64,000 bases of DNA. Origin: a virus. The stretch covers positions 1-64,000 of IMG/VR virus record IMGVR_UViG_3300022700_000177; one strand, 5' to 3'. The notes under the pieces are model-generated. The model was not told where the DNA came from. It made no database searches and worked only from the letters and a program-made list of their open reading frames with translations. A program made the translations under genes and the position numbers. Below, one piece after another: positions 562 through 19,585 of the stretch (positions are counted from its first letter, which is position 1; each line of letters starts with the position of its first letter).

Positions 562-587
562 CCATTAAAATTGGAGGTGGTTTATGT
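559..587 (+). repeat. Conserved early-gene leader/RBS, 29 bp identical to 1571-1599
   Basis: TAACCATTAAAATTGGAGGTGGTTTATGT occurs at both positions. Confidence 0.9.
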
Positions 588-1210: not shown

Positions 1211-1230
1211 TTATAAGATTGGAGGTGGCT

Positions 1231-1536: not shown

Positions 1537-1595
1537 TTTCAAGTAGGGAGTACTATAATACTCGACCTAATAACCATTAAAATTGGAGGTGGTTT

Positions 1596-2282: not shown

Positions 2283-2301
2283 AACTAAATTGGAGGTATT
2301 T

Positions 2302-2619: not shown

Positions 2620-2675
2620 GTTTTAACAAACCTACTGTCACTCCGGGGACAGCACAAACAAATTGGAGGTGGATT

Positions 2676-2850: not shown

Positions 2851-3312
2851 ATGTGTATTGCTGTACCTGTAGAAAAAATTGATTTTTTCGATGAAACAGA
2901 AGGATTTGGTTATAAGGTAATGACTGAAAAAAATGGTTTTATTCAGCCTTTATTTCCTCGAGGACAAAAAGGATTTGGTAGGGTTCCTAAATTTTTTAAG
3001 TATGCAAAAAATAGCTTTGTCCCTTTCAAAGACAAAGCTGCTATAAGAGAGTCCCTTATTTATTTCGGACCAAAACATATGTTTGACAATTATGTTCAGG
3101 GTTTCAACTTCTTTCTATATTTTGATGAGGCAGCGAAATACCTGCGAGAAACCGGGTATTATTATTTAAATGCAGAAGTAGGTATTTATAAAATTTATTA
3201 TCAAAAAGGTATTGGCAGCTACACAATACCTTCAGGCTTAGTTGGGAATTATATGAAAACTTCTATTTGTTCTGAATTTATAATTATGAGAAGAGAAAGG
3301 GGGTTTATTTAA
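2851..3312 (+). CDS. hypothetical protein, probable tandem paralog of next gene
   Basis: GYKV...GFNFF..EA here versus GYKL...GFSFF..EA in the next gene. Confidence 0.75.
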   Translation: MCIAVPVEKIDFFDETEGFGYKVMTEKNGFIQPLFPRGQKGFGRVPKFFKYAKNSFVPFKDKAAIRESLIYFGPKHMFDNYVQGFNFFLYFDEAAKYLRETGYYYLNAEVGIYKIYYQKGIGSYTIPSGLVGNYMKTSICSEFIIMRRERGFI

Positions 3313-3314
3313 GT

Positions 3315-3818
3315 ATGTGTAACCGATTTGACGAAGCTATCCAGTGTTTCCATGATGTAAAATTGGATGTTGGGTACAAACTATTTGAATTGTGGGCTAA
3401 AGAATCTACGGGAGATATTTTATACCTCCCTCCATGGTCTTCTTATCCTTATGAATTCAATAAGGATGTTTGTACTTTCATTAAAGAAAAAGAAAGCGAA
3501 GGTGATGGCTTTTCTTTCTTTGTTGAATTAAAAGAAGCTGAACATTTCTTTAAAAACCTTAATTCATGCAATCCCCCTATTAATACCGAACAGGCAGTGC
3601 TGCTTTTTGATAAAACTACTCGTGTAACAAACGTGTTTAAAGGGATTGCTTTAGCCGAAATAGCTTTATTTAACCCCTCATTGGTAATTAGTCACAAATT
3701 GGATGGAAAAAGAAGGGTACTTGGACTTACACCTAAATTTATAATTAAGAAGATTATAGAAACTACAACTACAAACCATGAAATTACGAAAAAAAGGGAG
3801 GATCATTATGGAATGTAA
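3315..3818 (+). CDS. hypothetical protein
   Basis: ORF packed in the operon; resembles upstream gene. Confidence 0.75.
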   Translation: MCNRFDEAIQCFHDVKLDVGYKLFELWAKESTGDILYLPPWSSYPYEFNKDVCTFIKEKESEGDGFSFFVELKEAEHFFKNLNSCNPPINTEQAVLLFDKTTRVTNVFKGIALAEIALFNPSLVISHKLDGKRRVLGLTPKFIIKKIIETTTTNHEITKKREDHYGM

Positions 3819-4137
3819 AAATTGTGGTACAGAAATGTGTTTGGTGGGTTTTGAATCAGAAAAACCTAAAAGGCCAAAGTATATATGTACTGAGTGTGGG
3901 AAACAAGAGGTAAATACTGCCAGAGCTTGGGTAGCTTGGCTTGTACCTTCTATCATGATTAGACTTGACAGTACAAGTCCTGTCAATGAGACCATCCTAA
4001 ATCTTGCTGTTGAATTTTTAGGTCCAATTCATATTCAAGGAGGTAACTACAAAGAAATGATGAGGTTGGAAAGTGTGGTGAAATTCCCAAGAAAATTCTC
4101 TTCTCTTTCATTAGATAGAAAGTATTTTAGGTCTTGA
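3808..4137 (+). CDS. Zn-ribbon hypothetical protein
   Basis: CKNC/CTEC; GGAGG before ATG 3808. Confidence 0.75.
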   Translation: MECKNCGTEMCLVGFESEKPKRPKYICTECGKQEVNTARAWVAWLVPSIMIRLDSTSPVNETILNLAVEFLGPIHIQGGNYKEMMRLESVVKFPRKFSSLSLDRKYFRS

Positions 4138-4187
4138 ATCATCGGAGCCCTGAGTTATTCTCGGGGTTCCCATTGATTTAGGAACCT
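4129..4187 (+). repeat. 3x4 internal-loop hairpin, copy 5
   Basis: tcttgaatc-[atc]-ggagccctgag...ctcggggttcc-[catt]-gatttagga. Confidence 0.8.
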
Positions 4188-4209
4188 TAAACCAAATTGG
4201 AGGTGGATT

Positions 4210-4518
4210 ATGGAAGAGACAAATTTTTATGTGGGGTTTTATGCAAAGTATAACGAAAGGTTTCATGCTGAAAGGGTTCTTCACATTCTTTCAAATTTTG
4301 AAATGCCTTGTTCTATGTCTGTTTGTCCAGGAGAACCTTATTTTCGTATACCTTGGGTGGGAGGTATTGATTATTTGGAGCATAAAATAATCTTTGCTTG
4401 CCCCATTTGCCGTAAATTTGCCGGTATTGACAGAGGTGAGTGCCCTTGTCCAACCCTTGGAAAGGAAGAAAATATCAAAAGGTCTTGGTTAAAACTTAAA
4501 GAAATGGGATTAGTTTAA
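4210..4518 (+). CDS. Cys-rich hypothetical protein
   Basis: CAAATTGGAGGT leader; CPIC and CPCP. Confidence 0.8.
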   Translation: MEETNFYVGFYAKYNERFHAERVLHILSNFEMPCSMSVCPGEPYFRIPWVGGIDYLEHKIIFACPICRKFAGIDRGECPCPTLGKEENIKRSWLKLKEMGLV

Positions 4519-4527
4519 GGGGGTTTT

Positions 4528-4764
4528 ATGTACAAAATGTATGATGTTGACATTGAGGACTTAACTCAAGAAGAAATTCAAGAGTTATTCCTTAAGCATG
4601 ATGAGTCAAACCTGTGGCCTATCAAAGGAAGATTCAATGTTACTGAAAAAGCGATACAAAACCTTAAACAGTTTGAGGAACTTGGTGGTGTTTTGAATGA
4701 CGGTCTTGAGTACGCATTGGCTTTAGACAATGAAATATCTAAAATTGTAAACTCGGAGGTGTAG
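4528..4764 (+). CDS. hypothetical protein
   Basis: ORF with RBS. Confidence 0.7.
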   Translation: MYKMYDVDIEDLTQEEIQELFLKHDESNLWPIKGRFNVTEKAIQNLKQFEELGGVLNDGLEYALALDNEISKIVNSEV

Positions 4765-4765
4765 T

Positions 4766-4969
4766 ATGAAGTACATTAACCATGCAATGGATGAAAAGTT
4801 GCACAAAAAGTTGGTTAAGCTGGCTGAGGAAAGACGCTTGCCCTTACGTCACTTAATGAATAAACTGGTGGACTTGGGGCTTGATCTTGTCAAAGCCCAA
4901 AAGAAAGGGAGTAAAATTGTTGTTGTTGATAAGGAAGGCAATGAAACCCAACTCAAAATCTATCTTTAA
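4766..4969 (+). CDS. putative ribbon-helix-helix DNA-binding protein
   Basis: short N-terminal strand, then DEKLHKKLVKLAEERRLPLRHLMNKLV helices. Confidence 0.5.
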   Translation: MKYINHAMDEKLHKKLVKLAEERRLPLRHLMNKLVDLGLDLVKAQKKGSKIVVVDKEGNETQLKIYL

Positions 4970-4978
4970 GGAGGTATC

Positions 4979-5155
4979 ATGGGAGAACAAATCAATCACA
5001 AACCAAGTGAAAAAAGGCAGATCAGGAAAGCTCAAAAAAAACGTGGAATGAAATATCTTCAAGAAAAAGGTGTTGATGTCATTGAATGGTGTAGACAACA
5101 TGACCCGTTGTATCAAGTCAAGGGTATTGAACGGCACCTAAAAACAAGGAGGTAA
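4979..5155 (+). CDS. hypothetical protein (58 aa, not in ORF track)
   Basis: AAGGAGGT RBS; fills the gap exactly. Confidence 0.65.
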   Translation: MGEQINHKPSEKRQIRKAQKKRGMKYLQEKGVDVIEWCRQHDPLYQVKGIERHLKTRR

Positions 5156-5158
5156 CTC

Positions 5159-5518
5159 ATGGCACTGTATTTCAATCCCAATCCAGAGGCACAGAGGGCA
5201 ATAATGAAGACAATTTTCTTTGTCTACAACAACCACTCTTTATCATCCTTCACTGCTTTTATGGGAAAACTGTCATACCTGGATGGCTATGGTGATGATG
5301 GGGTTGATGTTATTTTGACTTCAGCTAACAGAAGGCCGGTCCAAGACAAAGAGGATTTCATTGAGTTCGGGATTCAGTGGACTCAACAAAAAGATATAAA
5401 TGAACCACATTATGAACATCCAATTTATTGTAGAGAAAACATCTTTATGGTTGGAGGTCTTGTTTATCATGGCAATGATCAATGGGGGTGTTCATACCTA
5501 AAAGTTGCTGAAAAGTAG
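5159..5518 (+). CDS. hypothetical protein
   Basis: AAGGAGGT RBS. Confidence 0.75.
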   Translation: MALYFNPNPEAQRAIMKTIFFVYNNHSLSSFTAFMGKLSYLDGYGDDGVDVILTSANRRPVQDKEDFIEFGIQWTQQKDINEPHYEHPIYCRENIFMVGGLVYHGNDQWGCSYLKVAEK

Positions 5519-5560
5519 ATGCCCTTGGCTTGTGTCAGGGGCATTTATCGTTTCAGGAAC
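5504..5560 (+). repeat. internal-loop hairpin, copy 6 (divergent loop)
   Basis: gttgctgaaa-[agt]-agatgcccttggc...gtcaggggcattt-[atcg]-tttcaggaac. Confidence 0.65.
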
Positions 5561-5583
5561 ATCAACAAATTGGGGGTGGATTT

Positions 5584-5751
5584 ATGTATGTGATTAAAAA
5601 AGGTTCATTGTATGTGGCAAAGGAAGGATTGCCTTGTTCCTACACAAAAGTTGTAAAAAAAGCAAGGAAATTCAAAACAAAAGAGGAGGCTGAACGAAAC
5701 AGATGTCCTGAAAATGAACGGGTTGTTGACTTATTGACTGACATTCTTTAA
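5584..5751 (+). CDS. hypothetical protein
   Basis: start after CAAATTGGGGGT. Confidence 0.7.
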   Translation: MYVIKKGSLYVAKEGLPCSYTKVVKKARKFKTKEEAERNRCPENERVVDLLTDIL

Positions 5752-5762
5752 GGAGTGACTGC

Positions 5763-6461
5763 ATGACCTACATTCAAATCACTACAAGGTGCAACATGCG
5801 TTGTCCACACTGCTGCTACTCATGTACAGAGGATGGACAAGACATGGACATCGAAACATTCAAAAGGGCAGTTAAGGAATCGGATGAGATTGAGGATAGT
5901 GGTATAACTATTGGGGGTGGAGAACCCACACTTCATCCCCAATTTTGGGAGTTCATGGGTATTGCTTTGAGTGCATGGTGTCTTGACGATTTGCCTTTAT
6001 TCATTGCCACTAATGGTTCAAACAAAGACATCTCCATGAGGCTTGCACACATGGCAAAACGGGGACTGATTCATGCAGCTCTGTCCGTTGATGATTTTCA
6101 CTTAGGCATAGATGAGTCAGTGCTAAAGGCTTTCGGCTATTACAGGTCCAGGAAACAGCCTTCCTGGCCTTATGTGGGGCAATACAACACTACGCCAACA
6201 GACTTACGAGAAATCAGAAATGTCTCCTCAAATGTTGCAAACATTGGGAGGGCTGTTGAGAATGGTTTAGGAGTTTCTGATCGTTGTGTATGTGAAACCC
6301 CATTCATCACACCAACAGGCGAAATTTATATGTGCGGTTGTCAAGAGTTTCTTTTAGGTGATATTTTTAATGGGTATGCTTTCCCTGAAGGTTACCATGA
6401 CTTGGATGAGAGGTGTTCAAAGGAATATTTTCAAATGTTAGAGGAAGAGGAGGCGATATGA
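5763..6461 (+). CDS. radical SAM protein with Cys-rich (twitch/SPASM-like) C-terminus
   Basis: CNMRCPHC motif, GGGEPTLHP, ATNG, C-terminal Cys cluster. Confidence 0.85.
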   Translation: MTYIQITTRCNMRCPHCCYSCTEDGQDMDIETFKRAVKESDEIEDSGITIGGGEPTLHPQFWEFMGIALSAWCLDDLPLFIATNGSNKDISMRLAHMAKRGLIHAALSVDDFHLGIDESVLKAFGYYRSRKQPSWPYVGQYNTTPTDLREIRNVSSNVANIGRAVENGLGVSDRCVCETPFITPTGEIYMCGCQEFLLGDIFNGYAFPEGYHDLDERCSKEYFQMLEEEEAI

Positions 6462-6835
6462 CTTACTATGAGTTCAAAAATGAAGAGGGAGAAGGTTATG
6501 GCAGTTTCAAAACCTTTTATTTAGATAAAACTGATAGAATGTGGGAAGATGAAGCAACTGAATGGTTTAAATCTTTAGTGGACTATACTGGAGAACACAG
6601 GGACGATATTAGCCTTCTACTCAAATTGAAAGAAAGGGCAGAATACGCAGGTTTTGACTTGGTTCTTGTCGCTGCAAAAAACGAACCTATTTACATGGAA
6701 ATCCAAAAAGCAAAGAAAGCCCTTTCAGGTTGGTATTGGGTGGCAGAATTTCCTGGCTGCCTGCCTGATGGTGACTTTTTTGGCCCTTTTGAAACTGAAG
6801 AGAAAGCTGTTAACAATGCAAGGAGTTTAGAATGA
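6458..6835 (+). CDS. hypothetical protein
   Basis: GGAGG RBS; GWYW..FPGCLPDG..GPFETE motif. Confidence 0.75.
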   Translation: MTYYEFKNEEGEGYGSFKTFYLDKTDRMWEDEATEWFKSLVDYTGEHRDDISLLLKLKERAEYAGFDLVLVAAKNEPIYMEIQKAKKALSGWYWVAEFPGCLPDGDFFGPFETEEKAVNNARSLE

Positions 6836-7143
6836 AAAAAGGAAAGTTCAAAATTAGTGTTGTGAATGATTTGACTGAAGAACAAAGTTGGCGGGAAGTT
6901 TCTGGGTTGATATCAAAATATTTAGGTATACACAAAGGTGAAGGAGGATATCAAGTAACTCATCTACCTACAGGTTTACTCGCTATTAAGTATCCGCTAA
7001 AATATCTAAGGACTGCAAAGGAAATAGTTTCTGAATATGAAAAAAAGTTTCCTTTTGCATTAGCAGAAAAAAATGTTGATAAAATAAAACCCGTTATTCC
7101 AAAAATGCTCGAAATATTTAACTATTATTTCAACAGGGAGTGA
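6832..7143 (+). CDS. hypothetical protein
   Basis: ATGA translational coupling. Confidence 0.75.
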   Translation: MKKGKFKISVVNDLTEEQSWREVSGLISKYLGIHKGEGGYQVTHLPTGLLAIKYPLKYLRTAKEIVSEYEKKFPFALAEKNVDKIKPVIPKMLEIFNYYFNRE

Positions 7144-7145
7144 CT

Positions 7146-7301
7146 ATGGAAAAGCATAAAAGTATCAGACAAGCTGTGGATTTCTTGGAGATTCAGGGGT
7201 ATAAGCCTATAGCAGGAAAGCCCTGTCATTTCTTCAAATGTAAAAAGAGGGCTGTTATTGTCATCTCCCCAAGAGCAAAGATATTTGTGGCTTACCATTA
7301 G
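7146..7301 (+). CDS. hypothetical protein (51 aa, not in ORF track)
   Basis: GGAG RBS; ends at the next hairpin. Confidence 0.55.
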   Translation: MEKHKSIRQAVDFLEIQGYKPIAGKPCHFFKCKKRAVIVISPRAKIFVAYH

Positions 7302-7364
7302 GTTGGCTGATCCTGAAAAGGGGCAAGCTACTGTTTGTCCCTTTGATTGTTTCAGTGGAACCTA
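7299..7364 (+). repeat. 3x4 internal-loop hairpin, copy 7
   Basis: taggttggctgatcc-[tga]-aaaggggcaagc...gtttgtcccttt-[gatt]-gtttcagtggaaccta. Confidence 0.8.
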
Positions 7365-7383
7365 TAACGAGTGGAGGTAATTT

Positions 7384-7842
7384 ATGAAGCTGAAACTTTC
7401 TCAAAACGGTTTTAACTATCTGATGTTCGGGCATGAAGAGGATGAAAGAGCAACCTTTAAACTCTGGGTGAACAAATACCTTACCAATGGGGAACGTGAA
7501 ATTCACTTCCCCTTAAAAGCTAAGGTGATTGTCACAGGCAAAGGTAACAAAGTTCTAAAGCCAGCAGAGGATGTTTGGACTTTGAACCTGTTTGCAGAAT
7601 GTAACTATAAAGGGGAGACTGATATTTGTGTGCTTGGCAAATCGGTCCCCTTTCTCAGATCGCTTAGTCCATACAAAGAACTGAATTGTGTACACAATCC
7701 AGCTCTTGGTATATCTCGTGGTTTACTTGTCTCTGTCTCTACCCCTGAGCTTTTCTATGAAGTGACAAGAGACAATAAAGTGTTTCAATTACACTGGACA
7801 GAAGGAGGTAAAAGCGTATTGACAAACACCTACAAAGTCTAA
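7384..7842 (+). CDS. hypothetical protein
   Basis: TGGAGGTAA RBS. Confidence 0.75.
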   Translation: MKLKLSQNGFNYLMFGHEEDERATFKLWVNKYLTNGEREIHFPLKAKVIVTGKGNKVLKPAEDVWTLNLFAECNYKGETDICVLGKSVPFLRSLSPYKELNCVHNPALGISRGLLVSVSTPELFYEVTRDNKVFQLHWTEGGKSVLTNTYKV

Positions 7843-7881
7843 GGCCAAAAACTATAAACCTTAACCAAATTGGAGGTTTTT

Positions 7882-8454
7882 ATGACTGAACAATTTCAAT
7901 CAACCTGTGGCTGCCCTTTCGATCCCAATCCAAAGTCTTCCTGTTTCACAATCTGCAAGAAAGATGATCCTGAATCTTTTAAGCAGTGTGAAGGGGCTTT
8001 TGCTTCTGCATCGGAGACAAAGAAGGCTAAACGGAAGAAAGCTGCCAAACCTAAGAAGCAGAAAAGGTATGACATCATCGGTGATGGAGTTGGCACTTCA
8101 GCATCCATGATCAACTCACTCCTCATTTGCGGGGCTACTATGCAAGAGTTTCAAGAGGAAATTGGTTGTGATGCTTCTCGTATTCGGGGTCATTTTGGTG
8201 GGCTGCGTAACGGCAACAAGAATCGTGGTCCAAAAGAAATCTTCCACTCAAAAGAGAACGGCAGGTTTTACTTTGATGATCCCAACTTGGAATACTTTGG
8301 GGAATGTGGCGAAGAGGGCGAGTTGCCCAAACCTACTCCAAAGAAAGGGAAGAAAACTTCAGCCAAGCGTAAAACGGATACGAAAGTGAAAGCCAAACCT
8401 AAAGCTAAAGCCAAACCTAAGGCGAAGAAGGAAACTAAAGCGGAAGCTAAGTAA
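7882..8454 (+). CDS. HTH-like DNA-binding protein with H1-like Lys/Ala/Pro tail; paralog of 25789-26514
   Basis: GATMQEFQEEIGCDASRIRGH core; KAKPKAKAKPKAKK tail. Confidence 0.65.
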   Translation: MTEQFQSTCGCPFDPNPKSSCFTICKKDDPESFKQCEGAFASASETKKAKRKKAAKPKKQKRYDIIGDGVGTSASMINSLLICGATMQEFQEEIGCDASRIRGHFGGLRNGNKNRGPKEIFHSKENGRFYFDDPNLEYFGECGEEGELPKPTPKKGKKTSAKRKTDTKVKAKPKAKAKPKAKKETKAEAK

Positions 8455-8460
8455 TCACCA

Positions 8461-8494
8461 CAGCCCCTGGCTCAGGCCGGGGGCTTATTTTTTT
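8461..8494 (+). terminator. rho-independent terminator
   Basis: AGCCCCTGG-ctcagg-CCGGGGGCT followed by a T tract. Confidence 0.85.
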
Positions 8495-8620
8495 CCTTCT
8501 CCAGCAAGGTAAAACCTGTATTTTCTACTGGCTTTTCTATGCAATTTTACTATTTTAGAGTGTTTGACTTTCTTTAATGCGTGGATCATCTTTCCGCGGA
8601 TCAAAACTAAGGAGGTTTTT

Positions 8621-8914
8621 ATGGGAGGAAGAGTTTGTGTGGGTTGTGGTAATGTGACAAATGACTTCCAAACCTGCGTTAAATGTAACGGTCAATATAT
8701 TTGTCCTAAATGTTCCTTTTGTAATTATTGTGGTCATGAAGATAAACACCTGTATTACATAAAAAGACAACTGCAAAGAAAAAGGGAATCAAAGGAAAAC
8801 AGAATTGAAGAATTAAAAAAAGGATACTATGTCAATTTGTTTGAATTAGCTACTTTAGAAAAACAAATAGAATTGCTTGAAAACATCTATTTTGAATTCC
8901 TTTACTATAAATAG
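8621..8914 (+). CDS. multi-CxxC Zn-finger protein
   Basis: four CxxC pairs; AAGGAGG RBS. Confidence 0.75.
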   Translation: MGGRVCVGCGNVTNDFQTCVKCNGQYICPKCSFCNYCGHEDKHLYYIKRQLQRKRESKENRIEELKKGYYVNLFELATLEKQIELLENIYFEFLYYK

Positions 8915-8922
8915 GGGTTTTT

Positions 8923-9129
8923 ATGATGACCAGAATTGAAAATGAGTTAAAAACAATTCAAGACAGTAGGGTTTTAAAGGAGGAACTCCATTGTTTCATG
9001 GATGAAATTCAAAATCATTACCTTCACATCAACGATGACCATATCTTTCTAATCTTTTTGGAATTTGTATTAGATAGGTGTAAAAAAGCTAAAAAGGAGG
9101 AGCTTAATGAACAAAGAGCAGGTAGTTAA
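8923..9129 (+). CDS. hypothetical protein
   Basis: ORF in operon. Confidence 0.65.
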   Translation: MMTRIENELKTIQDSRVLKEELHCFMDEIQNHYLHINDDHIFLIFLEFVLDRCKKAKKEELNEQRAGS

Positions 9130-9748
9130 AAAAATCCACAAGCTGTTAGCGTTGGCAAGCAACAATCCAGAGTCACACGAAGCTAAACTTGCTGGGGAAA
9201 AAGCTGCGGAGTTAATGGCTAAATACCAGATTGAAAGTATCAAGGCTGAGGGAGAGGATTCCAAAGTTTCTGAAGTTAGCACCTCAAGGTACAAAGCTAT
9301 GAATAGCTGGGAGGGGGTATTTCTTGTAAAAATCTGTGACATTTTTGAATGTCGGTGTCTTATCTCAGGGAACAGCTTTAGGATAATTGGAATGAAAGCG
9401 GATGCTGATCTTGCTTTATGGTATTTCGTTTTTATCCGCAGAACGATTATCCGACAATCAGAAGTGTACTCTAAGAAAAAGAAAGAACAGGATGACTTCT
9501 GTGTAGGAATGTCAATTCGTGTTACTGAGAGGTTGAATGAGATTTACAAAAAGAAGGAAGAACAGCAAGTAAAAGAGATGACTAAGGATCTTGTTGTTTT
9601 AAAGAAGGGCGAAGTTGATAATTATATGAAAAACAATTATAAATTGAAGAAAAATCATAGTAAAAGAAGAAGGACAGATGCTAAGGATTATTATGCTGGA
9701 TACAAAAAAGGTGATGACATTTCATTGAACAAACCAGTTGAAAAATAA
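9107..9748 (+). CDS. DUF2786-family protein
   Basis: KKIHKLLALAS..HEAKLA..KAAELMAKY N-terminus; YYAGYKKG near C-terminus. Confidence 0.75.
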   Translation: MNKEQVVKKIHKLLALASNNPESHEAKLAGEKAAELMAKYQIESIKAEGEDSKVSEVSTSRYKAMNSWEGVFLVKICDIFECRCLISGNSFRIIGMKADADLALWYFVFIRRTIIRQSEVYSKKKKEQDDFCVGMSIRVTERLNEIYKKKEEQQVKEMTKDLVVLKKGEVDNYMKNNYKLKKNHSKRRRTDAKDYYAGYKKGDDISLNKPVEK

Positions 9749-9807
9749 GGATGCTTTCACAGGGCCAGTGACTTCAAGTGTCATTGGCCCCATTGGAGGT
9801 AACCTTA
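9746..9807 (+). repeat. 3x4 internal-loop hairpin, copy 8
   Basis: taaggatgctttc-[aca]-gggccagtgac...gtcattggccc-[catt]-ggaggtaacctta. Confidence 0.8.
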
Positions 9808-9825
9808 ACCAAATTGGAGGTATTT

Positions 9826-10047
9826 ATGCCAAAAGCAGAAGTGTTTCATGGGCCAACGCTTATAACAACCCTTACATCAAAAACAGTAAAGGGGGTGTTT
9901 AACCAATGTCAAGGTTATTTTGGTCATTGTTTAGGTGCAACAAAAAACACTGAAGGAAGGAGAATAGGTTGGAAGTTCGCAAGATGCGGAACAAAAATGG
10001 AATGTGTAACTGAAATTTACAACGTTCGTTTATATGAGGAGGATTAG
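9826..10047 (+). CDS. hypothetical protein
   Basis: CAAATTGGAGGTA leader. Confidence 0.75.
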   Translation: MPKAEVFHGPTLITTLTSKTVKGVFNQCQGYFGHCLGATKNTEGRRIGWKFARCGTKMECVTEIYNVRLYEED

Positions 10048-10048
10048 T

Positions 10049-10417
10049 ATGCCAACTTATAAAAGGTCTTTGCAACTTCAAACCAGAGCAGTGAATGAGG
10101 TTAGAATGATCTATTCAATGGCGGTTACTTGCAAGGTAACACATTCAGAATTAACCAAACAAATTATGGAGGTTTACAATCACACCTTAAAAGAAGCACC
10201 GCAATGGGCGAGAGAGTATGTTCGTGGTTATGTTGCTTGTCTCTTGGATAGAATCCAAGAGGAGCATATGGAATTCTGCTATATTATCAAAGGGCATCGT
10301 TACAGTACCAGAAAAGACTCCCCTATCAATTACGAAAAACACCACATTCTCCCAAGTCAGCTTTCAGGCCAGCCAAACGGCTTTTATTGGAAAGACACAG
10401 ACAAACTTTTCTACTAA
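10049..10417 (+). CDS. hypothetical protein
   Basis: GAGGAGG RBS. Confidence 0.75.
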   Translation: MPTYKRSLQLQTRAVNEVRMIYSMAVTCKVTHSELTKQIMEVYNHTLKEAPQWAREYVRGYVACLLDRIQEEHMEFCYIIKGHRYSTRKDSPINYEKHHILPSQLSGQPNGFYWKDTDKLFY

Positions 10418-10440
10418 CCTTTAGCTGATTGGAGGTATTT

Positions 10441-11295
10441 ATGAGTTTCGTAGAAGCAATGGAAGAAAAAGCAAGGATCATTGATGGAGTCAGAGAAAGA
10501 TTCCCAGAAGTAGAATGGCCTACCCCTGTCAAGGAGCCTATTTGGACAGGGCGGTTTGACAAGAAGCCTATTGAAGGTTGGTATGCGTTAAGGGATCAAA
10601 ACAATCAAAATCTATTCCAGTTTGTGTCCGATGATTATGCTCTGGTGTTTAATGAAGAAATTGTGGACAAAGCTGTTACTGCTGTGGATGAACTTGGCGA
10701 TACTTTTGGAGAACCCAAATTCGCTTTCAAGTTCTTCAAAGATGGGGCGAGGTTTAAGCTAAACATCACATTCCCGGACGCTCAAAAGAATATAGCACTG
10801 AAAGATCCTGTTGCCCCAACATTGTCCCTTAAAAACTGCTATGACAAATCAAGGAAGTTCATCTTTGAACGTGGAGCAATGGAACTTGTGTGTACTAATG
10901 GGTTAGTCGTACCAAGATTTAAAGACATGATTCAAAAGAAACATATCGGAGACTTTGATGTTCCTGACATTAAACAGGAATTGGTTAATTTCATTGAGGG
11001 CTTTGATCACACAACAGCAATTTGGCAGAAGTGGACTCAAACAAAAATTGACAAGTTTCAGGTTGCTGAGATTTGGGAAGCGATGCCCTTCTCAGAGAAG
11101 GAACGAGAGAAAATTGAAGCGTTACCTCTCATTGGGGATGGCAAGACTTTGGGTAGCTCAACTGATGGTTCAGTACTGCTTTGGGATTTGAATCGTGCTA
11201 CCACTCAATACCTAACTCACGAAATGAAATCTTCAGTAAGGGCAGACGAAGCAGGCCCTATCATTGCCAACATTATTTCCAAGTATTCTAATTAG
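10441..11295 (+). CDS. DUF932/DUF945-like protein
   Basis: VSDDYALVFN, LKNCYD, LVCTNGLV, KH motifs. Confidence 0.75.
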   Translation: MSFVEAMEEKARIIDGVRERFPEVEWPTPVKEPIWTGRFDKKPIEGWYALRDQNNQNLFQFVSDDYALVFNEEIVDKAVTAVDELGDTFGEPKFAFKFFKDGARFKLNITFPDAQKNIALKDPVAPTLSLKNCYDKSRKFIFERGAMELVCTNGLVVPRFKDMIQKKHIGDFDVPDIKQELVNFIEGFDHTTAIWQKWTQTKIDKFQVAEIWEAMPFSEKEREKIEALPLIGDGKTLGSSTDGSVLLWDLNRATTQYLTHEMKSSVRADEAGPIIANIISKYSN

Positions 11296-11311
11296 TTATC
11301 AACTTAACAAC

Positions 11312-11335
11312 TGGGGGCTGAGAAGTCAGCCCCCA
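11312..11335 (+). other. GC-rich hairpin (possible terminator or processing signal)
   Basis: TGGGGGCTGA-gaag-TCAGCCCCCA; no + strand T tract. Confidence 0.5.
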
Positions 11336-11354
11336 TACAAAAAGGAGGTTCGAA

Positions 11355-11810
11355 TTGAGAAATCCATTTAAGAAGAAAAAACAAACACCAACAGAAAGGA
11401 AACAAAGTGAACCAGAGTTTGCAAAGCAGATGGCAGGGAAACTTCAGTTTGAAAAGTGGAAGATACTAAGAATACAAAGACCTTACGATCAACTTGAAGT
11501 CCTCATTGATGATTTTGATGCTCGATTTATTGATTGGGAATTTATCTATGGCAATGGATGGACTGCAAGAGTAACGGACTTTATCTACACCTTTGAGCAG
11601 TTGGAGAGAAAGAAGATACCGACAGCAGGAAATATTTGGACGTGTGAATGTAAAAGTAAATACCAGTTTGTTCATTCTGATTACATCAAAATATGCACTC
11701 GGTGTTTTGCAATTTTGGATGAAAAAGAGTACACTAAGAGACTCCCCTACATTGGAGATATACTCAAGGGATGGCGAAGATTTGCTGAACTTCCTAAATA
11801 TGTAAAATAA
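11355..11810 (+). CDS. hypothetical protein
   Basis: TTG start after AAGGAGG. Confidence 0.7.
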   Translation: MRNPFKKKKQTPTERKQSEPEFAKQMAGKLQFEKWKILRIQRPYDQLEVLIDDFDARFIDWEFIYGNGWTARVTDFIYTFEQLERKKIPTAGNIWTCECKSKYQFVHSDYIKICTRCFAILDEKEYTKRLPYIGDILKGWRRFAELPKYVK

Positions 11811-11861
11811 GGATACTTTAGGGGCAGAGAGTCATTCCCTGCCCCAATAAGTGGTCTTATT
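11806..11861 (+). repeat. 3x4 internal-loop hairpin, copy 9
   Basis: aataaggatact-[tta]-ggggcag...ctgcccc-[aata]-agtggtcttatt. Confidence 0.8.
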
Positions 11862-14441: not shown

Positions 14442-15811
14442 TGATTGTTGTATTAAAAATACTAAACTCCTGTATCACCGAGATAACCCCCAATGGTTAT
14501 AAGGTGTTAAAGGAAAAATTAGCGTTTGAGGATGTCTTTTATAAACCGACACCTTATGGTCCAAAGAAAGCTGTCCAGTATTATAAGACAATGGTTTCGA
14601 AATCCAAGAGTGGTTATTTCATACCTACGGGGCTTTTAATGCACGCAGTTGCAATCCTGGAGTCTGAAAAAATCAAGTATGAAATCATAGGTGAGCAAGA
14701 AAAACTTCCAGTAAAAAAGCCAAAGCTAAAAGGTATTACTTTTCGTGATGACCAGGAAAGAATGATAGACTCCGCTTTACAAAAACAAAGAGGAGTTTTG
14801 ATTGCACCTACAGGTACTGGCAAATCTATTCTTGCGTTGGGAATCATGTCAGCCCTGCCAAAGAAAGCGAAAATACTATTCCTTGCACACACAGTTGACC
14901 TCGTAAAACAATTCAAAGCCGATTGCGAAAAATATGGATTTGATACAGGACTTGTTCAGGGTCAGAGTAAAGACATTTCTAAACGAGTGACCTGTGCTAC
15001 AATTCAAACGATAAGCAAACTTGATTGGAGAGAAATTTCTGATCATTGGGACACTGTTCTCATAGACGAGTCCCATAAAGTAAGCTCTGTCAAGAACAGA
15101 TATTCAGACTTCCTACAAAGGCAGTTAGCCCCAATGAAAATTGGATTTACTGCTACTATTCCAAAAGAAGGGGAAGCAAGATGGTGTTCTGACGCTTTCA
15201 TAGGTCCCCCAATTGATGAAGTGACTATGGATGAAGGGGTTGAGAATGAAATGCTCACACCTCCAATTGTTAAAATCTTGACATACCAAAGGGTGCATGG
15301 AGATCCAAATATAAGACAGTATAAGGATTACTATAATACCTTCATTGTAAACAACCCAACAAGAAACAGATTGATTGTCAAAGCAGCAAAACATCACATA
15401 GACAAGGGCCAGTCTGTTCTTATCTTTGTTAGCAAGATTTCTCAAGGAGATATTTTACAACAATTGGCTAAAGATAAAGGCTTAACTGTCCCTTTCTACA
15501 GAGGCCAATCCCCAAGTGACGAAAGAGAAGACGCTTTGAAAAGAATGAAAAGTAAGGACATTCTTGCCTGTATATGTACCACAATTTGGAAAGAAGGTAT
15601 TAACATTCCGCCTTTGAATGTAATAATCAATGCTTCTGGTGGCAAATCTGACATTCAAACGATTCAAGTAATTGGAAGAGGCACAAGAAAATTTGAGGAT
15701 AAAGACAAACTGATCGTTTATGATTTTGTTGATCCATACAGGTATATTGCAGATCATTTTTGTTTGAGATTGCTTATGTACAAAAACTTAAAATGGGAGG
15801 TGAAGTTTTGA
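14441..15811 (+). CDS. superfamily 2 DNA helicase (UvsW/ResIII-like)
   Basis: APTGTGKS, DESH, TAT, EGINIP, QVIGRGTR motifs. Confidence 0.9.
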   Translation: MIVVLKILNSCITEITPNGYKVLKEKLAFEDVFYKPTPYGPKKAVQYYKTMVSKSKSGYFIPTGLLMHAVAILESEKIKYEIIGEQEKLPVKKPKLKGITFRDDQERMIDSALQKQRGVLIAPTGTGKSILALGIMSALPKKAKILFLAHTVDLVKQFKADCEKYGFDTGLVQGQSKDISKRVTCATIQTISKLDWREISDHWDTVLIDESHKVSSVKNRYSDFLQRQLAPMKIGFTATIPKEGEARWCSDAFIGPPIDEVTMDEGVENEMLTPPIVKILTYQRVHGDPNIRQYKDYYNTFIVNNPTRNRLIVKAAKHHIDKGQSVLIFVSKISQGDILQQLAKDKGLTVPFYRGQSPSDEREDALKRMKSKDILACICTTIWKEGINIPPLNVIINASGGKSDIQTIQVIGRGTRKFEDKDKLIVYDFVDPYRYIADHFCLRLLMYKNLKWEVKF

Positions 15812-16483: not shown

Positions 16484-16743
16484 AATACCCAAGTTTGTGG
16501 ATAAAAATAAGACAAATAAACCCAATATTTCTTGCCAGAGAATGTCGCAAATGCGAAATGCTGGTAAAAAGAGAAACCTTATGGAAAACTTCAACAAATG
16601 ACGGTAATAATAGGAGAGCTGGACATTCTGGTAATGTTTACAGATACCCTGAATTTTATTGTTTTGACTGCTTCCCAACAAAAGAAAGTTTAACTGAATA
16701 TTTGTTGAAAGGGAGAGAAACTACAAAATATAGGTTTAAATGA
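16480..16743 (+). CDS. Zn-binding hypothetical protein
   Basis: CRKC/CFDC. Confidence 0.7.
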   Translation: MKYPSLWIKIRQINPIFLARECRKCEMLVKRETLWKTSTNDGNNRRAGHSGNVYRYPEFYCFDCFPTKESLTEYLLKGRETTKYRFK

Positions 16744-17645
16744 TGCAAGTAGATACCTTAGCACTACTTAGGGATCTAAATATTCCCTATAAAGAAACAG
16801 GTAAAAATGTGAGTAGTGGATGGGTTGGTGTGAATTGCCCATTTTGCACTGACCCATCATACCACATGGGAATCAACGTTGAAAACGCAACATTTTCTTG
16901 TTGGAGGTGTAGAGAACGGGGTTTTATTGTCAGATTTGTAGAAGAAATTTTGAATATCGACAACAAGGCCGCTTATGGCTATTGCTTGCAGTTCTCAGAT
17001 CGCCAGGAAGGCTTCTCCTTGAACCCACAATCACCCACAGAGTCTAAGCCTAACATAGATGCCATAACACTACCCGGAGAATCTCCTGGACCTAATTCCC
17101 AGAGTTTTAGATATTTGGAATCGAGAGGGCTCAATGCTGGGTTCGTTTCTGAATATTTTGAATTGCAGGAGACTGACTATAGTGACCCAGAGTTCAAATA
17201 TCGAATAATAATTCCAGTATATATCAAAAGAAAATTAGTTACTTTTTTAGGTAGAGATTATACTGACAAAGCAAACCTCAGGTACAAAAACTTATCAAAG
17301 GAAAAGTCAATCATTCCTGTGAAAAAAACAATACTGAACTATGACAAGATACAAAAGTCCTGCTTTATTACAGAGGGTCCTTTTGATGCGTTTGCATTAG
17401 GTGAAGATGCTACTTGCTTATTTGGATCGGAATATACAAAGGAACAAATTGAATTATTGTATAGCAAAGGTTTAGAAAGAGTGGTTGTTATTTATGATCC
17501 AGAAGCATTTCAAATAGGAGAACAATTAGCAAATGAGCTTGCAGGATTTGTACCAGATGTTAAAGAGGTTCAACTTGACCCAGGACAAGACCCAGGTAGT
17601 TTGCCAAGAAAAGAAGTATTCCAGATCAAGAGGTTACTTAGTTGA
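16740..17645 (+). CDS. DNA primase (Zn finger plus TOPRIM)
   Basis: CPFC..H..CWRC; YLESRG; ITEGPFDA; DPG. Confidence 0.9.
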   Translation: MMQVDTLALLRDLNIPYKETGKNVSSGWVGVNCPFCTDPSYHMGINVENATFSCWRCRERGFIVRFVEEILNIDNKAAYGYCLQFSDRQEGFSLNPQSPTESKPNIDAITLPGESPGPNSQSFRYLESRGLNAGFVSEYFELQETDYSDPEFKYRIIIPVYIKRKLVTFLGRDYTDKANLRYKNLSKEKSIIPVKKTILNYDKIQKSCFITEGPFDAFALGEDATCLFGSEYTKEQIELLYSKGLERVVVIYDPEAFQIGEQLANELAGFVPDVKEVQLDPGQDPGSLPRKEVFQIKRLLS

Positions 17646-17670
17646 CAAAACTAAATTTATTGTGTATCAT
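17642..17670 (+). promoter_or_regulatory. sigma70-type promoter firing into non-coding region
   Basis: TTGACA-17 bp-TATCAT. Confidence 0.75.
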
Positions 17671-17676
17671 AGATTC

Positions 17677-17792
17677 TTCCCTGCTGGAGGAGCTTTGGGT
17701 TTTACCTCCAATTTGACCAGACCTTCTCCAGTCTCTTCCTCCTTCTCCTTGTTGGGGCAGCTTTTGATCGGCTGCCCCAACCCACCTTTATT
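17677..17792 (+). ncRNA. candidate trans-acting sRNA with anti-RBS seed loop
   Basis: directly behind promoter; hairpin 17684-17731 with loop TTACCTCCAATTT; C/U-rich linker; 11-bp GC stem 17751-17781; no credible ORF. Confidence 0.6.
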
Positions 17793-17988
17793 ATCTGCAA
17801 GGTCTCACCATTATTTCCTACAAAAACAAGTGGTACTATCAAAAACCTTTTTTAGGTATCAAAGGTGCCTACCTCTCTATCTACAAGAGAGATTTTTTAT
17901 TAGTCTGGAATTTAATATCAAAGTTTATCTTTAGGAATCCGTCGTCACTCCGCAGGAGCAAGGACATATTCCTGAGAATAGCAAAGTA

Positions 17989-18148
17989 TTTCCTAATAAT
18001 ATTTTGATACCGAAGGTAGGAGCGTTACTACTCACTCCATATTCGCGTAGCGAAGCGGAGCGAATAGGAGTGTTTAACTCCGAAACGTAGCTTCGCGGAG
18101 CGAAGCAGAGTGGAGGAGTTAAGTTTGGGTTTGAATTTATTTAGGAAG
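17989..18148. other. branched hairpin cluster, possible single-strand priming signal of the origin
   Basis: CACTCC..GGAGTG and TTAACTCC..GGAGTTAA arms, each containing GTAGC and GCGAAGC. Confidence 0.45.
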
Positions 18149-18235
18149 GATGGTTTTCCTTATAAAGAACTCTTTCTTATAAGAACTTACCGAAAGGCAA
18201 TCCGCTATTGAAAACATCGAGATACCTTGATCTCA

Positions 18236-18311
18236 TTTACTTCTCAATCATCATTATTTTACTTCTCAATCATCATTATTTTTTCGCCACCTTTACTTCT
18301 CAATCATCATT
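18236..18311. repeat. three 20-bp iterons, putative replication origin
   Basis: TTTACTTCTCAATCATCATT at 18236, 18258 and 18292 (22 and 34 bp apart), followed by AT-rich DNA and the rep gene. Confidence 0.8.
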
Positions 18312-18454
18312 TTTTTTCCTTTTTTTGCCTACAATTACAAAAAAATTATTGTGAATAACCTTTGTAAATAAGCGTTTTTATAAATTAAAATTGAAAATAA
18401 GTATTGCTCTTTATCATTTTTTTATTATTCTTTAGGAATACAAATAAAATTACG

Positions 18455-18483
18455 TTGACAATGTGTAATTTTTAATATATTAT
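18455..18483 (+). promoter_or_regulatory. sigma70-type promoter of rep
   Basis: TTGACA-17 bp-TATTAT. Confidence 0.7.
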
Positions 18484-18507
18484 ATAATAAAAATAAGGGG
18501 GCTTACA

Positions 18508-19278
18508 ATGAAAGAAACAGACTATTTTTCTACAAATTTAAACTTCATAGAATATCCATTATGGGATATTGGTTATGCCAATTCAAACTATCAAACCAGA
18601 ATAATTTATTCAAAAAAAGGTACTTTTAGGAGGTCTTCATCTTTAAAACCACCTACAAGACTTGATTGGTTGTTTCTAAATTATTTATTAAAATCAATAC
18701 AAGGTGAAAAAAATAATAAAGGATTAGCACAACTCAGTTTGTCCCATAAAAATATTATAACAAACTCAGGAATCTGTTATTCCAATGAAACAATAGAAAG
18801 ATTAAGAGATTCCTTAAATAGATGGGCGCATACAACTTTAAAATTTGAAGGGAATTTGTATGAAAAAAATAAGCATGTGTTTATGACTTTCGGTATTATT
18901 TCTAATTGGGAATTTGTCAAAGGTTCAAAAAGTAAAATTTTAATAACCCTTGATAATAAGTTTTTATGGTGGGCTAATGAAGCCCGATATACAAAATCTT
19001 TTGACTTTTCTGTGATGAAAAGAATAAGTAAACCTTTGAATTTGAGGCTTTATGAATTATTTGATTCAAAAAAGTTGTTTTTAAGTCAAGGGAAAATATG
19101 GGAAAACGATGTGGAAATGTTTGGTCAGAAAACAACTATAAACTATAAACATAGCAGTGATGTTGTATTTAAGGTTAAAAGGGCCTTACCAGAAGTTTCT
19201 GAATATCTTGGATTTCAGGTTCTTCATAAAGTTAAAGCCTCAAAAACAGGCAGAAATATAATATTCTTCAGAGAATAA
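18508..19278 (+). CDS. plasmid-type replication initiator (RepA/TrfA/Rep_3-like winged helix)
   Basis: NFIEYPLW, IERLRDSLNRW, FGIIS, LRLYELF motifs; iterons immediately upstream. Confidence 0.65.
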   Translation: MKETDYFSTNLNFIEYPLWDIGYANSNYQTRIIYSKKGTFRRSSSLKPPTRLDWLFLNYLLKSIQGEKNNKGLAQLSLSHKNIITNSGICYSNETIERLRDSLNRWAHTTLKFEGNLYEKNKHVFMTFGIISNWEFVKGSKSKILITLDNKFLWWANEARYTKSFDFSVMKRISKPLNLRLYELFDSKKLFLSQGKIWENDVEMFGQKTTINYKHSSDVVFKVKRALPEVSEYLGFQVLHKVKASKTGRNIIFFRE

Positions 19279-19321
19279 TAAAACATTGTACGGTTGTAAG
19301 GGAGTTAAAACAAAAAGTCTA

Positions 19322-19350
19322 TTGACAATATATAAATAAAAGTATAAAAT
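19322..19350 (+). promoter_or_regulatory. sigma70-type promoter
   Basis: TTGACA-17 bp-TAAAAT. Confidence 0.7.
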
Positions 19351-19385
19351 ATTTCTTTATGTCTTGAAATAAATTGGGGGTATCT

Positions 19386-19553
19386 ATGCTTATAAATTAT
19401 TGGGATTGTTATTACTCATATGCAGAAGAGCAATTAAAAGATGGTAGCCTTGAATGGGTATATTATTGTGATCATCCTAAAAACCCAAGTGAATTTTGTA
19501 TTTGCGATAATCAATGGGGTGATGAAGAGGATGACTGCGAATTTTTGGATTGA
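19386..19553 (+). CDS. small acidic Cys-rich protein (55 aa, not in ORF track)
   Basis: AAATTGGGGGTA leader. Confidence 0.6.
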   Translation: MLINYWDCYYSYAEEQLKDGSLEWVYYCDHPKNPSEFCICDNQWGDEEDDCEFLD

Positions 19554-19585
19554 TAACATAAGTGATAATTGAATTGGAGGTTCAA

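What the first reader, a model, noticed from the sequence alone, without database searches (positions are those of the whole stretch)
17642..17792. Candidate phage sRNA whose loop is the reverse complement of the shared early-gene RBS leader
Seen: a TTGACA-17-TATCAT promoter fires into non-coding DNA. The ~110-nt transcript folds as CTGGAGGAG/CTTCTCCAG plus an upper stem, exposing TACCTCCAATTTG (17703-17715) apically. A single-stranded TCTTCCTCCTTCTCCTT tract and an 11-bp GC hairpin follow. The loop's reverse complement, CAAATTGGAGGTA, matches the leaders at 9810 (13/13), 2659, 4193 and 7866 (12 nt), 2287 (12 nt), 568, 909 and 1580 (11 nt), with shorter matches at 1218, 10428 and 19572. The leaders at 5566 and 19371 have A>G, which keeps a G-U pair. 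The AAATT part lies outside normal 16S anti-SD pairing, so the match is not just Shine-Dalgarno. Known: C-rich loop sRNAs (S. aureus RsaE, RNAIII) repress by RBS pairing. Inference: one phage RNA shuts off a regulon of about 13 early genes that carry a common address tag; the second C/U tract could cover AAGGAGG-type RBSs.
Basis: partly seen in the sequence, partly recalled or inferred. Interest (0 to 1): 0.92.

Follow-up and report, generated by a model that had tools for sequence, protein, structure and literature searches.

The report
Phage RNA complementary to early-gene leaders
An uncultured phage has, next to its replication origin, a promoter followed by a strongly folded non-coding stretch whose exposed loop is the exact mirror image of the ribosome-landing leader shared by about a dozen of its early genes. 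It probably turns those genes' translation down, but no transcript or effect has been measured.

Summary
A near-consensus promoter (17642-17670) leads into 860 bp of non-coding DNA between the primase gene and an iteron origin with a Rep gene. The first ~120 nt fold as described (z -5.35). TACCTCCAATTTG has a 0.70 probability of being unpaired, and the CU tract 0.85-0.93. An exact antisense copy of the leader arose in 0 of 3000 shuffles of the phage's non-coding DNA.

The phage is a singleton: its closest primase is 38% identical and its Rep has no relative. So this RNA has no covariation, no expression data and no clear 3' end. The CU tract is predicted to bind many purine-rich RBSs, so specificity is lower than claimed.

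There is indirect support. Three distant relatives with differently flanked leaders each carry a matching antisense copy in non-coding DNA. In cluster K mycobacteriophages, the "single opposite-orientation SAS" sits in the loop of a conserved hairpin.

There is also counter-evidence. One complete relative and several cluster K subclusters keep the leader without a matching loop.

Earlier AI notes of this scan describe similar anti-leader RNAs in other phages. Best reading: an anti-RBS sRNA, confidence about 0.5.

The parts
16740..17645 (+). DnaG-type primase gene; its stop codon lies inside the -35 box of the RNA promoter
   Evidence: phrog_47 E 2e-39, with weak Pfam zinc-ribbon and DnaG_N hits
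17642..17670 (+). Sigma-70-type promoter TTGACA-17-TATCAT; predicted start near 17677
   Evidence: 11/12 match. Only three sites in the 84-kb record reach 11/12
17683..17732 (+). Hairpin 1: 10-bp lower stem, 5-bp upper stem, 18-nt apical loop
   Evidence: -20.4 kcal/mol alone. Same fold in 124-, 229- and 559-nt contexts
17703..17715 (+). Anti-leader seed TACCTCCAATTTG in the apical loop
   Evidence: Exact reverse complement of the leader at 9810. Jointly unpaired with probability 0.70. 0 of 3000 shuffles give such a copy
17733..17749 (+). Single-stranded C/U tract containing CCUCCUU (a second, generic anti-SD element); its core is a 15-nt mirror repeat
   Evidence: Unpaired with probability 0.85-0.93. 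Best predicted partners are purine-rich RBSs at 24677 and 23815, at -23 kcal/mol
17751..17781 (+). 12-bp GC hairpin with no adjacent U-run
   Evidence: -23.1 kcal/mol. The tail reads CCCACCTTTATTAT
17782..17870 (+). Third folded domain between the GC hairpin and the terminator-like site
   Evidence: Fold of 17677-17905: -69.6 kcal/mol, z -5.45
17873..17900 (+). Terminator-like site: weak 6-bp stem followed by ATTTTTTATT; likely 3' end of a ~225-nt form
   Evidence: stem -7.1 kcal/mol
567..579 (+). Leader copy before ATG 584
   Evidence: 11 nt complementary to the loop
908..920 (+). Leader copy 4 nt before the ATG at 925 (my rough gene caller did not call this gene)
   Evidence: 11 nt complementary
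1216..1228 (+). Leader variant AGATTGGAGGTGG before ATG 1231
1579..1591 (+). Leader copy before ATG 1596
2286..2298 (+). Leader copy before ATG 2302
   Evidence: 12 nt complementary
2659..2671 (+). Leader copy before ATG 2676
   Evidence: 12 nt plus two G-U pairs; -21.4 kcal/mol
4193..4205 (+). Leader copy before ATG 4210
   Evidence: 12 nt complementary; -21.8 kcal/mol
5566..5578 (+). Leader variant GGGGG before ATG 5584
   Evidence: The A>G change keeps a G-U pair; -20.5 kcal/mol
7866..7878 (+). Leader copy before ATG 7882
   Evidence: 12 nt complementary
9810..9822 (+). Leader copy before ATG 9826; a second partial copy at 9789-9801 forms the 3' arm of the upstream hairpin
   Evidence: 13/13 complementary
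10425..10437 (+). Leader variant before ATG 10441
19370..19382 (+). Leader variant GGGGG before ATG 19386, behind the promoter at 19322
19571..19583 (+). Leader variant before ATG 19586 (Lar-like gene)
18236..18317 (.). Three iterons TTTACTTCTCAATCATCATTATTTT, spaced 22 and 34 bp
18300..18450 (.). AT-rich stretch (18-19% GC) with one DnaA-box-like site at 18350-18358
   Evidence: The box count in the window is at chance level
18455..19278 (+). Promoter TTGACA-17-TATTAT and Rep gene (replication initiator protein A family)
   Evidence: PF10134 E 3.8e-9; no homologue found elsewhere

Best explanation
The stretch 17677 to about 17795 or 17900 is the gene of a small non-coding RNA. It is made from its own strong host-type promoter at the head of the origin/Rep module, and possibly also as the tail of the primase message.

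The RNA displays two single-stranded anti-RBS elements. The apical loop UACCUCCAAUUUG pairs with positions about -18 to -4 of the shared leader (C/A/U)AAAUUGG(A/G)GGU(A/G) of 12-14 early cistrons. These lie at 0.5-10.5 kb and 19.4-19.6 kb. The pairing covers the Shine-Dalgarno sequence, keeps 30S subunits off, and so lowers translation and probably message stability. The CU linker can do the same at AGGAGGAAG-type sites.

Shown: the promoter match, the fold, the accessibility, and the non-random exact complementarity.
Inferred: that the RNA is made, where it ends, that pairing occurs in the cell, and that the effect is repression.
For: - Promoter at 11/12, one of three such sites in the genome.
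- Stable fold with the seed in the loop.
- No credible ORF, tRNA or Rfam family in the region.
- Exact antisense copy of the leader: 0 of 3000 shuffles. Loop k-mers are the only ones in the RNA with 9-13 complementary sites, nearly all at RBSs.
- Duplexes with 12 leaders are -16 to -22 kcal/mol, against -10.5 to -17 for a canonical 16S tail. After accessibility correction they are still -10 to -18.
- U stands opposite the two leader positions that vary between A and G.
- Recurrence with changed flanks in three distant relatives, two of them in a hairpin. L053 has leader ATAGGAGGATTAAT x6, with a 13-14-nt antisense copy in a hairpin just before a strong terminator. L051 has TAAGGAGGCA x6, with the copy in a hairpin loop. 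L073 has AAAAGGAGGATTT x10, with the copy in the non-coding head of the operon. Antisense copies number 5, against 0 for the composition-matched control.
- Cluster K mycobacteriophages: the single opposite-orientation SAS lies in the 10-12-nt loop of a hairpin that is conserved, with 6 compensatory pairs.
Against: - No expression data and no homologue of this RNA anywhere, so there is no covariation for it.
- The 3' end is unclear: the GC hairpin lacks a U-run and the terminator-like stem is weak.
- Specificity is low. 38 of 136 start regions are predicted at -10 kcal/mol or better, and the strongest are not leader genes.
- The promoter is of the early, host-polymerase type, so the RNA would be made together with its targets.
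- Leader families can exist without an antisense copy. A complete relative (L047 phage) has none at 13 nt, and the L009 phage has none at 12 nt.
- Cluster K phages Hammy and Krueger keep 13-14 exact SAS copies, but their homologous loop is only about 8/10 complementary. Yuna lacks the loop.
- The location beside iterons allows an origin-related role.
Confidence: 0.5

Rival explanations
1. Origin-associated transcript or structure. The promoter fires towards the iterons and AT-rich region about 590 bp downstream. It would serve to activate or prime replication, or the hairpins would act in single-stranded DNA. The match to the leader would be secondary.
For: The RNA lies between primase and an iteron/AT-rich/Rep module. 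The whole 559 nt up to the iterons are unusually structured, z -5.78. The terminators are weak, so read-through is likely. The three strongest promoters of the genome all sit in this 1.7-kb module.
Against: It does not explain an exact 13-nt antisense leader in an apical loop. A CU-rich RNA makes poor persistent RNA-DNA hybrids (established knowledge of hybrid stability). Rep-and-iteron origins do not need a primer transcript. Relatives lack this Rep and origin, yet some still carry antisense leader copies.
Confidence: 0.2
2. Relic or by-product. The loop sequence is an inverted scrap of the mobile hairpin-plus-leader cassette, and the structures are simply the 3' end or terminator of the primase operon, with no trans-acting role.
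For: Leaders look like a duplicated cassette. Examples are the shared AACCTTAAC upstream element and an identical 25-nt leader-to-ATG stretch before ATG 584 and ATG 1596. A second 11-nt antisense copy sits inside the helicase ORF at 15258-15268. Chance 13-14-mers do occur in the region.
Against: The similarity stops exactly at the 13 nt, with no cassette flanks. The copy sits in a loop behind a consensus promoter. Antisense copies recur in non-coding hairpins of relatives, whereas the composition-matched control gives none.
Confidence: 0.15
3. General anti-SD mimic. The RNA imitates the 16S 3' tail twice (ACCUCC, CCUCCUU) and soaks up Shine-Dalgarno sequences of host and phage messages alike, or binds a factor that recognises C/U-rich RNA.
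For: The CU tract is predicted to bind many RBSs, 38 of 136 at -10 kcal/mol or better. There are two CCUCC motifs in 60 nt, against only 5 sense-strand CCTCC in all 4.8 kb of non-coding DNA.
Against: The stoichiometry against all cellular messages is implausible. The AAUUUG extension gives specificity for the leader family.
Confidence: 0.1
4. The region encodes a small protein: the open frame 17533-17934, which could start at TTG 17695 behind GGAGGAG.
For: The frame is open for 133 codons, and an SD-like GGAGGAG lies 4 nt before a TTG.
Against: No family match. The SD is buried in the stem. The frame runs through two hairpins and a terminator. The product is the Ser/Leu/Pro-rich sequence expected from translating a CT-rich non-coding tract.
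Confidence: 0.03

Closest known systems
c4 antisense RNA of phages P1 and P7
   Same: A phage-encoded small RNA whose complementary sequences sit in loops and pair around the ribosome binding site of a phage message to block translation (review PMC12197685).
   Different: c4 has one target operon (icd/ant) and controls immunity. It is cut out of the same transcript as its target. Here there are about 13 dispersed targets sharing a tag. There is no Rfam C4 match.
C-rich anti-SD sRNAs of Firmicutes (RsaE/RoxS, RNAIII loops)
   Different: Those are cellular RNAs with short UCCC seeds. Here the seed is 13 nt and extends 5-6 nt upstream of the SD into a phage-private sequence. There is no Rfam match.
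Start-associated sequences (SAS/ESAS) of cluster K mycobacteriophages
   Same: A 13-bp motif that contains the SD core and lies 3-9 bp before the ATG of 13-19 non-structural genes. It occurs in one orientation except for a single opposite copy. About half the sites have an upstream inverted repeat. The role was still called ill-defined in 2024-2025 (PMC3203893, PMC11373665, PMC12699233). In Anaya I find the opposite copy in the loop of a conserved hairpin.
   Different: The motif sequence is different (GGGATAGGAGCCC), and so are the host phylum and phage family. ESAS repeats are read as promoters or operators, whereas here the upstream hairpins look like RNA processing sites. In K5/K6 phages the loop is only partly complementary although the SAS is unchanged.
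T4 RegB nuclease and RegA repressor
   Same: Phage-encoded shut-off of many early messages through their ribosome binding sites (T4 review PMC3014915, found; details from my own knowledge).
   Different: Those are proteins. Here the proposed effector is an RNA.
ColE1 RNA II-type primer transcript and transcriptional activation of phage origins
   Same: A promoter several hundred bp upstream of the origin, with a highly folded 5' region (my own knowledge).
   Different: This origin has iterons and its own Rep gene. The RNA is pyrimidine-rich. No antisense partner promoter stands out.

Membership tests
Rfam families (incl. C4 RNA, RsaE) | Covariance-model match at the gathering score | tested here: not met
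   No match in the window at gathering score. Only a spurious snoRNA hit at E 0.32 with lax filters.
Base-pairing anti-RBS sRNA (functional class) | Own promoter and defined terminator giving a discrete small transcript | tested here: inconclusive
   Promoter 11/12. The 3' end is ambiguous, being either the GC hairpin without a U-run or a weak terminator at 17873-17891. No RNA data.
Base-pairing anti-RBS sRNA (functional class) | Seed is single-stranded in the folded RNA | tested here: met
   Seed unpaired with probability 0.70; CU tract 0.85-0.93.
Base-pairing anti-RBS sRNA (functional class) | Complementarity to target start regions beyond chance | tested here: met
   0 of 3000 shuffles give an exact copy. 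12 leaders pair at -16 to -22 kcal/mol.
Base-pairing anti-RBS sRNA (functional class) | Seed and target co-vary in relatives | tested here: inconclusive
   There is no homologue of this RNA. Analogous antisense copies follow changed leader flanks in L051, L053 and L073. The L047 and L009 phages have leaders without such copies.
Base-pairing anti-RBS sRNA (functional class) | Pairing-dependent change of target translation | not testable with these tools
   Needs reporters or toeprinting.
SAS/ESAS-type leader system | 13-bp motif including the SD core, a few nt before ATG, on non-structural genes, in one orientation | tested here: met
   12 leader-position copies on the + strand, 4-7 nt before ATG, at 0.5-10.5 kb and 19.4-19.6 kb.
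SAS/ESAS-type leader system | Motif sequence GGGATAGGAGCCC and cluster K ancestry | tested here: not met
   Different motif. Primase relatives are unrelated uncultured phages. This is an analogue, not a member.
SAS/ESAS-type leader system | Upstream inverted repeat at about half of the sites | tested here: met
   Hairpins precede 6-7 of the 12 leader genes.
Iteron origin with Rep | Direct repeats, AT-rich region and adjacent initiator gene | tested here: met
   Three 26-nt repeats, 18% GC stretch, PF10134 Rep at E 3.8e-9.
ColE1-type primer RNA | Rep-independent origin; the RNA forms a persistent hybrid at the origin | tested here: not met
   A Rep gene and iterons are present. The transcript is CU-rich.

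The most novel reading that the evidence does not exclude
Anti-leader RNAs are a general but unrecognised layer of phage gene control. Early or non-structural genes carry a private extension of the Shine-Dalgarno sequence as an address tag. One phage RNA with the complementary loop reads that tag to switch the whole set. This would also explain the start-associated sequences of cluster K mycobacteriophages, whose role has been open since 2011 and whose lone reverse copy sits in a conserved hairpin loop.
Probability: 0.3. Interest if true: 0.85.

Novelty: new variant of a known kind. Interest (0 to 1): 0.62.

Why it matters
If the pairing is real, a single phage RNA controls a dozen unrelated early genes through a shared leader. 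That would be an RNA counterpart of T4 RegA/RegB and a compact timing device encoded beside the origin.

The same architecture appears in a cultivable, genetically tractable system, the cluster K mycobacteriophages. There it consists of a leader family plus one antisense copy in a hairpin loop. So the idea, and the long-unexplained SAS motif, could be tested directly with existing tools: BRED mutants, published RNA-seq and reporters.

If the pairing is not real, the locus is still a clear example of an iteron origin with a structured upstream transcript in a large lytic-type phage.

Tried and rejected
- Megablast of 16700-19400 against cultured phages found nothing.
- tblastn of Rep found nothing. 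The Rep protein search found only the protein itself.
- The closest primase anywhere is 38% identical. Single-protein locus searches found nothing.
- The 18-nt loop pattern hit four viral contigs, but all lie antisense within an unrelated conserved coding gene, so they are chance matches.
- A degenerate hairpin-1 pattern gave 0 hits in metagenome and genome collections.
- The 23-nt leader pattern gave 0 viral hits and 3 unrelated short metagenome contigs with single copies.
- The look-up of sequencing runs: no holder was listed, and no RNA holder was listed.
- Rfam and tRNA scans were empty.
- Small ORFs on both strands have no credible start or family, and there is no start codon behind the minus-strand GGAGG.
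- I suspected a syntenic promoter-driven ncRNA after primase in relatives. Gaps with long hairpins exist. But they share no sequence with the window, are not C/U-rich, and have no repeated targets. Strict promoter matches are at background, 4 of 33 loci against about 4 expected. I dropped this as evidence.
- The opposite-orientation leader in the complete L047 phage turned out to be the RBS of a gene on the other strand, not an anti-leader.
- A first accessibility-blind duplex scan was uninformative and was replaced by a windowed one.
- The DnaA-box count in the window is at chance level.

Full report
**Where it lies.** The window is the first 64 kb of an 83.9-kb uncultured virus record, 77% complete by CheckV. 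Genes run on the + strand up to about 54.7 kb and have strong GGAGG-type ribosome binding sites.

The finding sits in an 860-bp gap without credible genes. On its left is a DnaG-type primase gene (16740-17645). On its right is a gene of the replication-initiator-protein-A family (18508-19278; PF10134, E 3.8e-9). The right part of the gap is a plasmid-style origin. It has three 26-nt direct repeats at 18236, 18258 and 18292, a stretch of 18% GC, and a second consensus promoter at 18455 for the Rep gene.

- TTGACA-17-TATCAT at 17642-17670 matches 11 of 12 positions. A scan of the whole record finds only three promoters of that quality, at 17642, 18455 and 19322, all inside this 1.7-kb module.
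- The partition function gives the 13-nt seed 17703-17715 a joint unpaired probability of 0.70, and the CU tract 0.85-0.93. The competing TGGAGG/CCTCCA pairing is therefore minor.
- The GC hairpin has 12 pairs.
- The leader matches are as listed, each 4-7 nt before an ATG.

**Is it more than chance?** A single 13-mer match is not significant. The 271-nt region has several chance 13-14-mers in the genome. What matters is that the loop matches a repeated family. The loop k-mers are the only ones in the RNA with 9-13 complementary sites, nearly all at ribosome binding sites. In 3000 dinucleotide shuffles of the 4615 nt of sense-strand non-coding DNA, an exact antisense leader never appeared. A copy with one mismatch appeared in 0.7% of shuffles.

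**What the RNA could do.**
- Duplexes between the loop and twelve leaders are -16 to -22 kcal/mol. The same leaders pair with a canonical Bacillus-type 16S tail at -10.5 to -17 kcal/mol.
- After correction for accessibility on both sides, the leader genes still score -10 to -18 kcal/mol.
- The same scan shows that the CU tract is predicted to bind purine-rich sites of other genes even more strongly (ATG 24677 and 23815, about -23 kcal/mol). In all, 38 of 136 start regions reach -10 kcal/mol.
- About half of the leader genes directly follow hairpins with internal loops that punctuate the early operon. The leader would then be the 5' end of processed messages.

**What is missing.**
- No transcript evidence could be obtained. 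No run was listed.
- The 3' end is uncertain. The GC hairpin is followed by CCCACC before any U. The only terminator-like site (17873-17891) has a 6-bp stem of -7 kcal/mol. Read-through towards the iterons is therefore plausible, and the whole 559 nt up to the iterons are unusually structured, z -5.78.
- The phage is a singleton. There is no DNA match among cultured phages. Rep has no relative among 5.8 billion proteins. The nearest primase is 38% identical. Pattern scans of viral, metagenome and genome collections found no second copy of the RNA.

**Indirect tests in distant relatives.** Eighty viral contigs share the helicase-primase-p513 synteny at 27-36% primase identity. None has the Rep/origin module or any similarity to the gap.

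Eighteen sequences, counting the window, carry their own RBS-type leader family, defined as a 10-mer present at least 5 times before an ATG. Four of them have an antisense copy in non-coding DNA on the transcribed strand. Those four are the window, L051, L053 and L073. The window also has a fifth antisense copy, inside the helicase ORF. A composition-matched control (the complement, not reversed) gives none.
- In L053 the copy is complementary over 13-14 nt to four of six leaders (ATAGGAGGATTAAT). It sits in a hairpin in the 3' untranslated tail of a 285-codon gene, directly before a strong terminator.
- In L051 it is the apical loop of a long hairpin.
- In L073 it lies in the non-coding head of the early operon.

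The SD core is constant, but the flanks differ between phages and the antisense copy follows them. This is the kind of co-variation asked for, although between analogous rather than demonstrably homologous RNAs.

Against this, the complete genome behind L047 has ten copies of AGGAGAAGTAAAATG and no antisense 13-mer. Its one opposite copy is the RBS of a membrane-protein gene on the other strand. The 84%-complete L009 phage has none at 12 nt. Leader families therefore do not require an anti-leader.

**A cultured parallel.** The paper describes a 13-bp motif containing the SD core, 3-7 bp before the ATG of non-structural genes. About half the sites have an upstream inverted repeat. [quoted passage not shown] Papers of 2024 and 2025 still call the role ill-defined and mention no antisense RNA.

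I located that opposite copy in Anaya. It lies in a 385-nt non-coding gap with z -5.96, in the apical loop of a hairpin. The gap is conserved in 182 phage records. In seven sequences the hairpin keeps 20 pairs, six of them with compensatory changes.

The support is mixed, however. Four K1-type phages (Anaya, Angelica, Niklas, Biglebops) keep the loop complementary to the SAS. Hammy and Krueger/Bryler have loops with two central mismatches although they keep 13-14 exact SAS copies. Yuna has lost the loop.

**Verdict.** The best reading is a promoter-driven anti-RBS small RNA aimed at the shared early leader, with confidence about 0.5. The main rival is an origin-related transcript or structure (0.2), and the two are not exclusive. 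Lesser rivals are a functionless inverted scrap of the leader cassette (0.15), a general anti-SD mimic (0.1) and a small protein (0.03).

In kind, it is a new variant of loop-mediated RBS-blocking RNAs such as c4 of P1/P7 and the C-rich sRNAs of Firmicutes. Its distinguishing feature is a 13-nt seed reading a phage-private tag on many genes. Earlier AI notes of this scan describe similar predicted anti-leader RNAs in other phage genomes. I did not check those, and they are not independent evidence.

Noticed in passing
window 506-11860: The early operon is punctuated by GC-rich hairpins with an internal loop, a lower stem and motifs such as CTGAGAAGG...CCTTCAATTG. Most lie right after a stop codon and before a leader. 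They look like T7-style RNase III or other processing sites.
   Followed up: partly
L032:800-867, 1211-1281, 2685-2750; L080:3969-4036; L052:5927-5996: Distant relatives carry type II hammerhead ribozymes (Rfam RF02276, 41-62 bits) upstream of the helicase-primase genes. This suggests self-cleaving processing of their messages in the region where this phage has hairpins.
   Followed up: no
window 17642, 18455, 19322: The only three sites in the 84-kb record that reach 11/12, all TTGACA-17-TATNAT, cluster in the RNA/origin/Rep module. No comparable promoter precedes the early operon in the record, which is 77% complete.
   Followed up: partly
window 18236-19278: Plasmid-style iteron origin with an orphan Rep gene. 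It is absent from all 80 syntenic relatives, so the module looks captured.
   Followed up: partly
window 15258-15268: A second antisense leader copy of 11 nt (CACCTCCAATT) lies inside the helicase coding sequence. It is probably chance.
   Followed up: no
window 17733-17747: The core of the CU tract is a perfect 15-nt mirror repeat (CTCTTCCTCCTTCTC), a feature of triplex-prone DNA. It may be a coincidence of a two-letter alphabet.
   Followed up: no
window 18029-18122: Two tandem similar hairpins (GCGAAGCGGAGCGAA-type, 40-nt spacing) lie between the RNA and the iterons. Their role is unknown.
   Followed up: no
window leaders; L053 330-6181; L073 275-6781: Leaders of this phage and of two distant relatives share an upstream element TAAC(C/T)TTAA a few nt before the SD region. 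This suggests an old, homologous leader cassette in this phage lineage.
   Followed up: partly
L086:47683-48067 (Anaya record 59682-60066): The lone opposite-orientation SAS of mycobacteriophage Anaya lies in the apical loop of a hairpin within a highly structured non-coding gap. The gap is conserved in 182 cluster K records, and some records annotate a hypothetical protein over it.
   Followed up: partly
L028:11067-11240, L052:10989-11130, L032:6176-6330, L080:10984-11190, L020:10921-11060: Several relatives have a non-coding gap shortly after primase that contains a very long, near-perfect hairpin (15-25 bp) around a 40-70-nt interior. There is no similarity to the window and no Rfam match.
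   Followed up: partly
L021 (tandem array; coordinates not recorded): At least ten tandem copies of a 15-nt unit (TAATGATATAAAGTC) in a relative.
   Followed up: no
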